A stretch of 64,000 nucleotides of DNA from the NCBI RefSeq assembly GCF_009914755.1, contig NC_060925.1; one strand, 5' to 3'. Numbering within the stretch: the stretch's first letter is position 1; the number at the start of each line of letters is the position of its first letter. A program made the position numbers and the translations under genes. The DNA is from the human T2T-CHM13v2.0 reference genome, Homo sapiens. Below, piece after piece: positions 1-2,509 of the stretch. The notes under the pieces are model-generated. The model saw nothing but the letters and a program-made list of their open reading frames with translations, ran no database searches and was not told where the DNA came from.

Positions 1-697
1 TCATTTATTTTATGTATTAAATTAGACAAAGAAATAAATATGCAACTGGATAAAAACAATCACATTCTTATACTACCTGAACACACAGTAGTGGTAAAAA
101 AAAAAAATAAAATAATGAATTGTAAAATGGGCCCCAGGATTTAATGCAAACATCACCCTGTACAAGAAAAGTTTCAGGCTTCTAGCTTCACCGAATCTAG
201 TACTAAATGTGCTTCTTTATATTCCTCAGTGTCTTCCAAGTCTTTTTCACTTTCTAACATCTGTTGAAGATCCAAATATGCAGCTTCCAACCTGCGCTGG
301 CAATCTGGGATCATCATCTGGGATTCTTGTAGGATCTCTGCCTGCTTTTTAATGGCATAATTTTCACCATCTTCGGCTCTCATTTTTTCGATCTTTTCTT
401 CTTGTTATTTTGCTTCTTTTCCATACGTCAGTTTTTCTTTGACCGACCTGCAAACCTCTGATGGCTCTCTATTACCAAGCAATTCAACTTTTTCTTGTAA
501 TATCATGACTTTTCCCTTGCTTCTTTGGAGCACTTCCAGCATCACTAGTGGCACTCCGTATGGGTCTCGTGGTGTTATTTAAGATTTACATTCAAGGTTT
601 ACAAGATTGCACACTTCACCACACTAGTCTTGATCTTGGTTGGCCTCATGCAAGGGTTGGCCGTGGTCCCTTGAGCACTGCAAGAAGAAGGAGCAGA

Positions 698-700
<3 letters not shown>
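1..700 (-). pseudogene. TBCA: Processed pseudogene of tubulin-specific chaperone A (TBCA), with a 164-nt extra segment at the exon1/exon2 junction
   Basis: ORF 174-383 (MRAEDGENYAIKKQAEILQESQMMIPDCQRRLEAAYLDLQ...VLDSVKLEA) is the TBCA C-terminal part with no introns. 384-447 continues upstream as SVKEKLTYGKEAK*QEEKIEK with a premature TAA at 405-407. 612-664 encodes TANPCMRPTKIKTSVVK (TBCA MADPRVRQIKIKTGVVK) with ATG mutated to ACG at 664-662. The 3'UTR runs to an AATAAA at 9-4; the poly(A) tail would lie just outside the window. Confidence 0.96.
448..611 (-). mobile_element. Internal fragment of a Tigger2-like (TcMar-Tigger) DNA transposon encoding the transposase N-terminus, embedded in the TBCA retrocopy
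   Basis: Minus strand reads ...SATSDAGSAPKKQ/KVMILQEKVELL (one frameshift), a CENP-B/pogo-type N-terminal motif matching my recollection of the Tigger2 consensus. No terminal inverted repeats (TIRs) or TA TSD. Confidence 0.8.
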
Positions 701-988
<288 letters not shown>

Positions 989-2509
989 AATCGAAGGACA
1001 GGCAGAGACACCAGTTTCTTATTCAGGTCCTCATAGCAATTTGACCAGTTCTGGTCTTCTCAGGGGTCGTTTTTAAAGGGAATGGAAATATGTCCCTGCT
1101 TCGACCCTAAGCAACTACCCTTGACTTTGACTTTGGTGTCCAAAAGCTCCATGTTGATTTGTTAAGTAGGGCTGATTATGTCTCGCCTTCTTCAGGGACA
1201 GTGGTCCTCAAGGTTGTTTTGGCTTTCGGACAACTTGGATAGGACAAAAGGACTGTCCGCCTCCTTATCACCTCCTTCGCATTTGCCGTTCTTAATAGAA
1301 CCCCTTCTGAGATAGGGAGGCAGTTGTTTCTCCCGGCAACAGGATGCTAAGGGAGGGGTAGCAGAATTAATTGTATCTTCCCACCAGGAGGAAGGAACCA
1401 CAGTGCTGTCATTCTAAATGTTGGTATTGCGTCTCTGGGTCTAGCCTGCGTGTTGAGAGCCATCACCTGGAAGAGGAGGATCCTAAGCTGAGAGAGGGAA
1501 ATTCTTAAATCAGCTCATGCTGGACTCGTCTTACGTTGTTTTACCCTGAATCTGGAAAGCATAGCAGAGTCATGGGGTGGGACTGCCTGAAACGGCGGTC
1601 TAACCACTGCTGGTATAGAAACTTAGATCTTGCCCATCACCTTACCCTTGACCTTCCCTCTTCTTCCATAAACCGTCTGTGGGATGAGTGTGTGTTGTGC
1701 GTGATTCAGCTTACACCAGACTTGTCACCTGTCATTCAACAGGGTCTGTAACTGTTGCTTTAGTTTCAGAGGCACCCGTTTTTCTTGGGTGTTTGGAGGC
1801 GAGTCTGGAAGTATGTTTCAGGGAAGGGACCAGATATGTATTTCAAGGTTCAGCATGTTAAGTTGTGCTTGCTCTCCAGGCGCTCAGCTCAGCCCCCATT
1901 AAAAAGGCTGAACTGGAGAATTGTAACAACATACAGAGGGGTCCTGAGAGCCTGCCCCACACTGCGACCATGATGGTCTGTTACTGGAGAAGGTTTAAAA
2001 TGTAGCATGCAGTCTAAGCATGATTTTAACTCGAGGCAGTGGTGTGGTTTTAGCACCAAGCTAGAAGGAGATGGGTTATTAATCCTTTTGACATTCCCTT
2101 TGAATAGCATCATATTTCAATCCTGTTAAGCTGTGGGGCCGTTGTTTATCGGACTCCCTCCAAAAGCAGGACCTCTGCTGTGCTGAAGCTGCAAAACACT
2201 GCCCAGCTCTGTGCCTTTCGGTCGACAGTCGGCTTCAGCCTTCTCAGCTGACCCCTCCACCTCATCAGCTCTGAGATCAACTCAGGCAGCTCCCAGCTGC
2301 CTCAGCTCACCCATCTGTCACTGGCCAAGGAAGGGTCAATGGGCCTGGTGCCCTTTAGTTGGAATGTCGAGAAAAGGAAGAAGGAAAACTGCATCTAGAA
2401 AATACTTTTTTAAGTTGGAGGGTAAGGTAGTCAGGCATGCTGAAGAATCCAGGATTCTAAATGTGACTATCTCCATGCCTTCAGCTGTCTGTGTTGATCT
2501 CCTCAACTG

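What the first reader, a model, noticed from the sequence alone, without database searches (positions are those of the whole stretch)
405..664. The captured exon both poisons the canonical frame and offers an in-frame transposase-TBCA fusion start
Seen: reading from the TBCA start, the cassette gives AAG TGT GCA ATC TTG TAA, a stop at 601-599 after 21 codons, and 164 nt is not a multiple of 3. An ATG at 506-504 (context GTCATGA, purine at -3) lies in the transposase frame. It reads MILQEKVELLGNREPSEVC-R-SVKEK... straight into TBCA exon 2, in the same frame as ORF 174-383, broken only by the TAA at 405-407. Inference: the parental isoform was either a poison (NMD) exon tuning TBCA dosage, or a uORF/re-initiation transcript making TBCA with its first 17 aa replaced by 19 transposon-derived aa. 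Re-initiation would help explain how a PTC-bearing mRNA survived to be retrotransposed. This is the best candidate for undescribed biology in the window.
Basis: partly seen in the sequence, partly recalled or inferred. Interest (0 to 1): 0.7.

Follow-up and report, generated by a model that had tools for sequence, protein, structure and literature searches.

The report
TBCA retrocopy preserving a transposon-derived exon
This dead, reverse-transcribed copy of the tubulin chaperone gene TBCA has kept an extra exon spliced in from an old Tigger-type transposon in TBCA's first intron, and the apparent transposase-TBCA fusion start seems to be an accident of later decay, not a lost protein.

Summary
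On the minus strand, TBCAP2 carries a 164-nt insert (window 611-448) exactly between TBCA exon 1 (ends 612) and exon 2 (starts 447). Read from the former start codon (ACG, 664-662), it gives a TAA at 601-599. An ATG at 506-504 is open and in frame into exon 2.

The insert comes from a sense-oriented Tigger-type transposon copy in TBCA intron 1 on chr5. That copy and the pseudogene share a 13-nt tandem duplication whose 22-nt junction occurs exactly only at these two places in the genome. The insert begins right after a pyrimidine tract plus AG in the parent. TBCAP2 is therefore an L1-made retrocopy of a minor, stop-bearing TBCA splice form.

The fusion idea fails:
- The parental copy has a TAG 14 codons after the same ATG.
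- 18 of 26 other copies are out of phase.
- 5 of 26 unrelated decayed copies also show an open in-phase ATG, so this is chance level.
- The open frame depends on a scrambled block found only in the pseudogene.

One gap remains: no GT donor follows the insert's end in the parent or in any of the 26 copies. This is a new example of a known kind and of low interest. The closest analogue is POU2F1 exon Z.

The parts
1011..1020 (-). 5' target-site duplication of the retrocopy (AAGAAACTGG). Its partner AAGAAATTGG lies just beyond the poly(A), outside the window at about -26..-35.
   Evidence: The two copies match at 9 of 10 bases and flank the whole retrocopy.
991..1010 (-). The most 5' piece of the TBCA 5' UTR in the retrocopy. 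It is cut off from the rest by an Alu and overlaps the Alu's own target-site duplication.
   Evidence: The sequences left and right of the Alu both align to the same parental stretch, CTCCGCCCCTCCTTC.
698..990 (+). Alu element inserted into the retrocopy's 5' UTR after retroposition. It is antisense to the pseudogene.
   Evidence: read directly from the sequence. The name Alu is recalled, and no repeat library was run. One search shows a match to an Alu-like repeat in the TBCA locus.
612..697 (-). TBCA exon 1 equivalent: the rest of the 5' UTR plus codons 1-17 and 2 nt of codon 18. The start codon has decayed to ACG (664-662), and the terminal CG has become TG.
   Evidence: The parental exon 1 lies at G000:C5:78258191-78258310.
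448..611 (-). 164-nt cassette: an exonized piece of a Tigger-type (pogo-like) DNA transposon from TBCA intron 1. It runs from 29 nt (consensus numbering) upstream of the transposase start into about codon 41.
   Evidence: The parental copy is at about G000:C5:78231630-78231780, minus strand.
577..602 (-). 13-nt tandem duplication (GTAAACCTTGAAT GTAAATCTTAAAT), shared only with the TBCA intron 1 copy.
   Evidence: The 22-nt junction is found exactly only at the window and at C5:78231749-78231770 in the whole genome.
599..601 (-). TAA that closes the TBCA frame 21 codons after the former start. It is present in the parent and in the transposon consensus.
   Evidence: In one search, 22 of 26 copies have a stop at the same codon when entered in phase 2.
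568..570 (-). Position of the transposase's own start codon (ACCATGG in the consensus and in the parent). It has decayed to ACG here.
504..506 (-). It is an internal Met (about codon 22) of the transposase, at the start of its CENP-B-type DNA-binding domain.
459..473 (-). Scrambled block specific to the pseudogene. It removes the TAG that closes this frame in the parent.
   Evidence: the parent is consensus-like here and the pseudogene is not.
342..447 (-). TBCA exon 2 equivalent, with an in-frame TAA at 407-405 where the parent has CAA (codon 32).
1..341 (-). TBCA exon 3 (341-255) and exon 4 with the 3' UTR (254 to about -8). A 15-A poly(A) follows at -9..-23, outside the window.

Best explanation
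TBCAP2 is an L1-mediated processed pseudogene made from a minor TBCA transcript. In that transcript, a sense-oriented Tigger-type DNA transposon in intron 1 had been spliced in as an extra exon between exons 1 and 2.

The exon was entered at a pyrimidine tract plus AG. This signal belongs to the transposon family's consensus and lies 29 nt upstream of the transposase start codon. The exon puts a TAA into the TBCA frame after 21 codons, so the transcript was non-productive for TBCA.

The copy was dead on arrival or soon after. It has decayed neutrally since: the start codon is lost, codon 32 is a nonsense codon, and an Alu has inserted in the 5' UTR.

The ATG at 506-504 that now runs open into exon 2 is a by-product of decay in the pseudogene. 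It does not record a transposase-TBCA protein.

Shown here: the origin of the cassette, the acceptor, the stop, the hallmarks of a retrocopy, and the closed or out-of-phase frame in the parent and in the family.

Inferred: the isoform was a low-level splicing by-product in the germ line. This fits published work showing that sense Tigger exonization is suppressed by SAFB proteins in somatic cells, and that many SAFB-suppressed splicing events become active in testis.
For: Origin of the cassette:
- It matches TBCA intron 1 (C5:78231654-78231780, minus strand). This lies 26 kb below exon 1 and 40.7 kb above exon 2.
- The match starts at the first cassette base, whereas other genomic copies match only from about 21 nt further in.
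- The parent and the pseudogene share a 13-nt duplication that is absent from 26 of 26 other copies.
- The 22-nt junction of that duplication is exact only at these two loci genome-wide.

Splicing:
- The parent has ...ttttttgtgtttAG directly before the first cassette base.
- Exon 1 ends at its true donor, AAGCG|gtaagg.
- Exon 2 begins at its true acceptor.

Retrocopy hallmarks:
- All exons are contiguous, with a 15-A tail and a 9-of-10 target-site duplication.
- The chrX and chr4 retrocopies carry the plain exon 1|exon 2 junction.

Stop codon: the TAA is present in the parent and at the same codon in 22 of 26 copies.

Fusion frame:
- The parent has a TAG after 14 codons and no ATG that is open in phase.
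- 18 of 26 copies have 58 nt from the ATG to the end, which is out of phase.
- 5 of 26 copies have an open in-phase ATG by chance.
- The open state needs the pseudogene-only scrambled block.

Transposon identity: pieces of a longer copy hit HTH_Tnp_Tc5 (29.7 bits) and DDE_1 (39.4 bits). CENP-B_N scores 21.0 bits against a cut-off of 21.2.

Decay: 36 of 327 CDS bases differ with no indels, and dN is 0.084.

Literature: PMC10901741 (abstract and passages read).
Against: - No GT or GC donor follows the cassette's last base. The parent reads ...GTCTGTGG|CTGCAT, and 0 of 26 other copies have GT after ...CAG.
- Alignment to the present parent cannot fix the 3' boundary, because the scores for many end points are flat at 26-28.
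- The exon therefore either used a donor mutation since lost from the human parent, or was longer, with the pseudogene later losing bases at the junction. Either reading needs an extra event.
- No transcript data were available, so it is unknown whether the exon is used today or was ever used at more than trace level.
- Pairwise dN/dS is 0.30, lower than a naive neutral expectation. The counts are small (14.5 synonymous and 20.5 nonsynonymous changes), and the parental branch is under constraint.
Confidence: 0.85

Rival explanations
1. The Tigger exon was a regulated poison exon or uORF switch of ancestral TBCA. After the short upstream ORF ended at the TAA, ribosomes re-initiated at the exon's ATG. 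This made TBCA with its first 17 residues replaced by 19 transposase-derived residues, as happens with POU2F1 exon Z.
For: - The architecture exists in the pseudogene: a stop, then an open in-frame ATG.
- The parent and the pseudogene have the same 59-nt distance from the ATG to the inferred end, which is in phase by length.
- A real precedent with a Tigger2 exon is published (PMC9090674, whole text read).
- The stop lies only 21 codons from the start. From recalled knowledge, nonsense-mediated decay is weak at that distance.
Against: - The parental frame closes at a TAG after 14 codons.
- The family consensus is out of phase (18 of 26 copies).
- The open frame needs a pseudogene-only block.
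- 5 of 26 unrelated copies show the same feature by chance.
- The first strong start after the stop in the parent is the transposase's own ACCATGG, which opens a short ORF ending inside the exon.
- No donor is present today.
- Nothing on such an isoform was found in print.
Confidence: 0.06
2. The captured exon was longer than 164 nt, or ended at a different base than it appears to. The transcript used a real GT further downstream. One candidate is the weak GCG|GTTGCC, 5 nt on in the consensus. The pseudogene later lost the intervening bases, so the present cassette length and frame are not those of the mRNA.
For: - No GT follows the present end in the parent or in 26 of 26 copies.
- The consensus has an imperfect tandem CTGCAG CTGCGG at the boundary, which is a slippage-prone context.
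- The pseudogene shows other small indels and a scrambled block nearby.
Against: - The deletion would have to end exactly at the first base of exon 2.
- The candidate donor is poor.
- The last 11 cassette bases match the consensus at 10 of 11 without gaps, and the exon ends in CAG, the usual last three bases of an exon.
Confidence: 0.25
3. The cassette entered the pseudogene after retroposition, either as an independent transposon insertion or by gene conversion, and was never part of a TBCA mRNA.
For: The missing GT donor.
Against: - The boundaries coincide to the base with the exon 1 donor, the exon 2 acceptor and the parental AG.
- The fragment is an internal 164-nt piece without transposon ends.
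- It carries the private duplication of the TBCA intron copy.
Confidence: 0.01

Closest known systems
POU2F1 exon Z (POU2F1Z isoform), a Tigger2-derived exon (PMC9090674, whole text read)
   Same: In both cases an intronic Tigger-type element in a host gene is spliced in as a cassette exon. The exon brings a stop that turns the upstream coding region into a short ORF, and it carries an ATG in the host frame.
   Different: - In POU2F1 the splice sites, stop and ATG are reported as conserved from macaques to humans, and the protein is reported as made.
- Here the frame is closed in the parent gene, and no donor is present today.
- The only record here is a dead retrocopy.
- Exon Z comes from positions 2150-2461 of Tigger2, whereas this cassette comes from the start of the transposase ORF.
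Processed pseudogenes as records of past splice forms. This general idea is recalled. The reviews in the listing were seen only as listing and abstract starts.
   Same: An L1-made retrocopy with a poly(A) tail and a target-site duplication that keeps an exon combination other than the main mRNA.
   Different: The retained exon is a transposon-derived, stop-bearing exon whose donor can no longer be found in the parent.
SAFB-suppressed exonization of sense-oriented Tigger and L1 elements (PMC10901741, abstract and passages read)
   Same: A sense-oriented intronic Tigger element supplies splice sites. Such events are reported as suppressed in somatic cells, and many are active in testis, the tissue where heritable retrocopies arise.
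   Different: TBCA is absent from the 7 supplementary files that could be searched (one PDF was unreadable). That paper stresses gene-trap use through the transposon's poly(A) site. Here the exon was spliced onward to exon 2.
Known cryptic exons of TBCA: a branaplam-induced 34-nt pseudoexon (PMC8894458, passages and supplement) and a SNP-dependent 58-nt exon (PMC8801146, one passage with its Table 2)
   Same: Both are cryptic exons of TBCA. The 58-nt one was placed in intron 1 here. The 34-nt one maps there only through recalled hg38 gene coordinates.
   Different: They differ in length and place. The 58-nt exon was located at C5:78212991-78213048, 18.6 kb below the cassette. The 34-nt exon maps near exon 1, a placement that rests on recalled hg38 coordinates.

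Membership tests
L1-mediated processed pseudogene | Exons of a multi-exon parent gene joined without introns | tested here: met
   Exon 1, the cassette and exons 2, 3 and 4 are contiguous. The parental exons are spread over 84 kb of chr5.
L1-mediated processed pseudogene | Poly(A) tail at the mRNA 3' end and flanking target-site duplication | tested here: met
   There are 15 A's about 9 nt after the AATAAA-bearing end. AAGAAACTGG and AAGAAATTGG flank the copy.
Exonized transposon (cassette exon) | The source element lies in an intron of the parent gene, in sense orientation, and is the actual donor of the sequence | tested here: met
   The source is the intron 1 copy on the minus strand. It shares the private 13-nt duplication, and the junction 22-mer is exact only at these two loci.
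Exonized transposon (cassette exon) | AG acceptor with a pyrimidine tract at the 5' boundary | tested here: met
   The parent has ttttttgtgtttAG|TGCAAT. The AG is kept in 21 of 26 family copies.
Exonized transposon (cassette exon) | GT (or GC) donor at the 3' boundary | tested here: not met
   The parent reads GTGG|CTGCAT, and 0 of 26 copies have GT after the CAG. The state at the time of retroposition is unknown.
Exonized transposon (cassette exon) | Transcript evidence in the parent gene | not testable with these tools
   No RNA data or human gene annotation outside the window were available. Paper searches found nothing.
Poison exon coupled to nonsense-mediated decay | In-frame stop upstream of later exon junctions | tested here: met
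   The TAA is at 601-599 in the pseudogene and at the same codon in the parent. Three junctions lie downstream.
Poison exon coupled to nonsense-mediated decay | Conserved, regulated inclusion that tunes gene output | not testable with these tools
   No cross-species or expression data. Loss of the donor in the human parent argues against maintained use.
uORF-switch transposon exon of the POU2F1Z type | An ATG in the exon that is open and in frame with the host coding region in the host gene itself | tested here: not met
   The parent has a TAG after 14 codons and 0 open in-phase ATGs. 18 of 26 family copies are out of phase. The frame is open only in the pseudogene.
Tigger / pogo-type DNA transposon | Transposase with a CENP-B-type DNA-binding region and a DDE_1 catalytic domain, present as a many-copy family | tested here: met
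   Pieces of L007 hit HTH_Tnp_Tc5 at 29.7 bits and DDE_1 at 39.4 bits. CENP-B_N scores 21.0 bits, just under its 21.2 cut-off. There are 693 first-look candidates in the genome. The exact family name (Tigger2-like) is recalled and was not tested. Terminal repeats were not examined.

The most novel reading that the evidence does not exclude
Early anthropoid TBCA carried a genuinely used Tigger-derived exon in intron 1. It was entered through the transposon's own acceptor just upstream of its start codon. It acted as a germ-line dosage brake or uORF switch on this tubulin chaperone. The human lineage later disabled it by destroying the donor (CAG to TGG, with no GT). TBCAP2 would then be the only surviving record of an extinct regulatory exon.
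Probability: 0.07. Interest if true: 0.45.

Novelty: new member of a known kind. Interest (0 to 1): 0.2.

Why it matters
- It corrects the picture of TBCAP2. The pseudogene runs from about window 1010 to -23, not -15..448. It contains an Alu, exon 1 and a 164-nt transposon-derived exon.
- It is a clean, datable example of a retrocopy that records a splice form the parent gene can no longer obviously make.
- It shows that an apparently meaningful 'stop then in-frame ATG' arrangement arises by chance in about one in five decayed copies of the same element. That is a useful caution when reading pseudogenes for lost isoforms.
- It does not reveal new biology of TBCA.

Tried and rejected
- **Separate micro-exon for the last 28 cassette bases.** I searched the whole 92-kb TBCA locus. 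Only chance 8-12-mers turned up, so this was rejected.
- **Fixing the 3' boundary by alignment.** I aligned the pseudogene tail to every possible end point in the parent. Scores were flat at 26-28 and gave no decision.
- **Donor GAG|GTCTGT, 8 nt before the end.** Rejected, because the pseudogene keeps the next 8 transposon bases (7 of 8 match the consensus).
- **Upstream acceptor of exon 2 as the source of those 8 bases.** Rejected: 5 of 8 match against 7 of 8 for the transposon, and no AG is present.
- **Known TBCA cryptic exons.** The 34-nt and 58-nt exons are different exons.
- **TBCA in the SAFB paper's supplements.** Absent from the 7 searchable files. One PDF could not be read.
- **Paper searches.** 'TBCA' + 'Tigger' returned 2 papers with irrelevant titles. 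'TBCAP2' returned 1 unrelated paper. 'tubulin folding cofactor A' + 'alternative splicing' + 'isoform' returned 4 unrelated papers.
- **Pfam on the 49-aa pseudogene ORF (405-554).** No family was found.
- **Splice-site scoring.** No scoring tool was available, so donor and acceptor strength are judged by eye.

Full report
**What is in the window.**
Read on the minus strand, window 1-720 is a copy of the TBCA mRNA. ORF 174-383 matches residues 40-108 of human tubulin-specific chaperone A (PDB 1h7c) at E = 1.8e-33.

The window's own genome could be searched. It places the parent gene on contig C5, minus strand:
- exon 1 at 78258191-78258310
- exon 2 at 78190834-78190941
- exon 3 at 78175854-78175938
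- exon 4 at 78173840-78174089

The parental exon 1 ends ...GTGGTGAAGCG|gtaagg. The parental exon 2 begins ...tttttatag|GTTGGTC. In the pseudogene, exon 1 therefore ends at window 612, where the final CG has become TG. Exon 2 starts at 447 (GTCGGTC). The 164 bases at 611-448 lie exactly between them.

**Check of the observation.**
- The former start codon is ACG at 664-662.
- Reading on gives AAG TGT GCA ATC TTG TAA, with the TAA at 601-599 as codon 22.
- 164 is not a multiple of three.
- The ATG at 506-504 sits in GTCATGA.
- It reads MILQEKVELLGNREPSEVC, then R-SVKEK in the TBCA frame. This is the same frame as ORF 174-383.
- The only interruption is the TAA at 407-405, where the parent has CAA.

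**Where the cassette comes from.**
A search with window 405-720 found 693 first-look candidates, of which 40 were scored. One hit lies in TBCA intron 1 (C5:78231654-78231780, minus strand). That is 26 kb below exon 1 and 40.7 kb above exon 2.

That hit is the only one that starts at the first base of the cassette. All the other copies match from about 21 bases further in.

I aligned 26 other copies. The parent and the pseudogene share a 13-nt tandem duplication (GTAAACCTTGAAT GTAAATCTT.AAT) that none of the 26 has. They also share two derived substitutions. The 22-base junction of the duplication occurs exactly at only two places in the 3.1-Gb genome: the window and TBCA intron 1. The six two-mismatch hits equal the reversed-pattern control of seven. 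The cassette is therefore a copy of this particular intronic element and no other.

**What the element is.**
Longer copies keep open pieces that hit three Pfam families:
- HTH_Tnp_Tc5 at 29.7 bits
- DDE_1 at 39.4 bits
- CENP-B_N at 21.0 bits, just under the 21.2 cut-off

This is a pogo/Tigger-type transposase. The name 'Tigger2-like' is my recollection and was not tested.

The element lies in the sense orientation of TBCA. The majority sequence of the 26 copies has a pyrimidine tract and AG, then 29 bases, then ACCATGG, which opens the transposase ORF. The cassette runs from that AG to about codon 41.

The ATG at 506-504 is thus an internal methionine, about codon 22. The true start is ACG at 570-568 in the pseudogene and is still ATG in the parent.

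**Splicing at the 5' side.**
The parent has ...ttttttgtgtttAG directly before the first cassette base. 21 of 26 family copies keep the AG. The exact use of the exon 1 donor, this acceptor and the exon 2 acceptor leaves splicing as the only reasonable origin.

**The retrocopy as a whole.**
The 3' UTR is followed by 15 A's and then AAGAAATTGG. Upstream, AAGAAACTGG lies at 1020-1011. Together these form a 9-of-10 target-site duplication.

Between 990 and 698 lies an Alu on the plus strand. It has its own duplicated flank, because both flanks align to the same parental 5' UTR stretch.

TBCAP2 therefore spans about 1010 to -23. The RefSeq span of -15..448 covers exons 2-4 only.

Two other retrocopies, on chrX (L010) and chr4 (L011), have the plain exon 1|exon 2 junction. 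A fourth, at chr5:158.9 Mb, is truncated at its 5' end. So one of three informative retrocopies records the cassette form.

The coding part differs from the parent at 36 of 327 bases without indels. dN is 0.084, dS is 0.28 and pairwise dN/dS is 0.30 on small counts. With the lost start codon and the nonsense codon 32, this fits a dead copy that is tens of millions of years old. I did not date it more closely.

**The stop.**
In the parent the same reading gives CGT GCA ATA ATG TAA. 22 of 26 copies would give a stop at that codon if entered in the same phase. The exon is non-productive for TBCA by the transposon's own sequence. 'Poisons the canonical frame' is correct for the parental transcript too.

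**The fusion frame.**
From the ATG to the cassette's last base there are 59 bases in both the pseudogene and the parent. That is the right phase for exon 2. But the parent reads ATG ACA TTA CAA GAA AAA GTT GAA TTG CTT GAT ACG TAC CTG TAG, which is closed after 14 codons. No ATG in the parental exon equivalent is open and in phase.

Among the 26 other copies:
- The distance is 58 bases, the wrong phase, in 18.
- Six have a phase-2 length.
- Five have some ATG that is open and in phase to the end (L030, L035, L038, L039, L043). That is about one in five by chance.

The three-way alignment shows that between the ATG and the end the parent is consensus-like apart from one extra T. The pseudogene has a block at about 473-459 that matches neither.

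Whichever way the single-base gain is placed, the transcript at the time of retroposition did not encode a fusion. It was either out of phase (58 bases), or in phase but closed by the TAG that the consensus carries one base out of frame. The open frame is a product of pseudogene decay.

In the parent, the first well-placed start after the stop is the transposase's own ACCATGG. It opens a 31-codon ORF that ends inside the exon. Re-initiation there would not give TBCA.

**The unexplained point.**
The last 11 cassette bases (GAGGTTTGCAG) match the family consensus GAGGTCTGCAG at 10 of 11. The consensus continues CTGCGG, and the parent reads GTCTGTGG|CTGCAT. None of the 26 copies has GT at that place.

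A GT eight bases earlier (GAG|GTCTG) was not the donor, because the pseudogene keeps the following eight transposon bases. No separate micro-exon exists in the locus. Alignment cannot choose another end point.

Two readings remain:
- A donor-creating change in the ancestral parent (C to G would give CAG|GTGCGG) that was later lost, together with CAG becoming TGG.
- A somewhat longer exon, with a small deletion at the junction in the pseudogene.

In the second case the present length and frame of the cassette are not those of the mRNA, which weakens the fusion reading further. Primate orthologues would settle this, and I could not reach them.

**Why such a transcript was retrocopied.**
No special rescue is needed. 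Minor and aberrant splice forms are retrocopied in proportion to their germ-line abundance.

A published study reports three relevant things (PMC10901741, abstract and passages read):
- SAFB proteins bind sense-oriented Tigger elements in host introns.
- Their loss activates cryptic splice sites in those elements.
- Many SAFB-suppressed events are active in testis.

TBCA itself is not in the 7 supplementary files I could search, and one PDF was unreadable. That start-proximal stops escape nonsense-mediated decay is established knowledge that I recall and did not look up.

**Comparison with what is known.**
Exon Z of POU2F1 is a Tigger2 fragment that brings a stop and then an in-frame ATG, so the upstream ORF becomes a uORF. 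Its splice sites, stop and ATG are conserved from macaques to humans (PMC9090674, whole text read). TBCA fails the defining test of that type, because the frame is closed in the host gene.

Two cryptic exons of TBCA are in print. One is a 34-nt branaplam-induced pseudoexon (PMC8894458, passages and supplement). The other is a 58-nt SNP-dependent exon (PMC8801146, one passage with its Table 2). I located the 58-nt exon at C5:78212991-78213048, 18.6 kb below the cassette. The 34-nt exon maps near exon 1, a placement that rests on recalled hg38 gene coordinates. Both differ from the cassette in size.

Searches for 'TBCA' + 'Tigger', for 'TBCAP2', for 'TBCA' + 'poison exon', and for 'tubulin folding cofactor A' + 'alternative splicing' + 'isoform' found no description of this exon.

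**Verdict.**
The 'captured exon' and 'frame-poisoning' parts of the interpretation are supported. The transposase-TBCA fusion is not.

The locus is a new example of a known kind: a processed pseudogene that keeps a transposon-derived alternative exon. It has one unresolved detail, the missing donor, and it corrects the annotated extent of TBCAP2. Interest is low.

Noticed in passing
window 448-1020 (minus strand), and beyond the window start to about -35: The RefSeq span of TBCAP2 (-15..448) covers only exons 2-4. The retrocopy actually runs from about 1010 to the poly(A) at -9..-23, with target-site duplications at 1020-1011 and about -26..-35.
   Followed up: yes
window 698-990 (plus strand): An Alu-like element (name recalled) inserted into the retrocopy's 5' UTR after retroposition. 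It has a flank duplication of about 15 nt, and both copies align to the same parental 5' UTR stretch.
   Followed up: partly
L005 about 1500-1630 (G000:C5:78231630-78231780, minus strand): Since the retrocopy was made, the parental Tigger copy has lost 12 bases just after its start codon. The deletion is in frame, and the pseudogene still has those bases. The parent has also changed the exon-final CAG to TGG.
   Followed up: partly
loci L002-L008 and L029-L048 (26 copies of the Tigger-type family): The family consensus carries a pyrimidine tract plus AG 29 nt upstream of the transposase ACCATGG start, and 21 of 26 decayed copies keep it. It could be a built-in acceptor that lets the element ride on host transcripts, or it could be coincidence.
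   Followed up: no
L021 (G000:C5:78212991-78213048, minus strand): This is a 58-nt stretch flanked by a ...cacatttctAG acceptor and a TAG|GGaaga downstream flank. One G-to-T change would make it a strong donor. It fits the published SNP-dependent cryptic exon of TBCA (PMC8801146).
   Followed up: partly
L010 (G000:C23:32639738-32640295), L011 (G000:C4:102224333-102224745 and upstream), L013 (G000:C5:158892456-158892610): These are three further TBCA retrocopies. The chrX copy is young (exon 1 is 98% identical to the parent), and it and the chr4 copy have the plain exon 1|exon 2 junction. The chr5 copy is truncated at its 5' end.
   Followed up: partly
G000:C7:98288002-98288036: Two overlapping two-mismatch matches to the duplication-junction motif. 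This may be an independent tandem repeat of the same 13-nt unit in another copy of the element.
   Followed up: no
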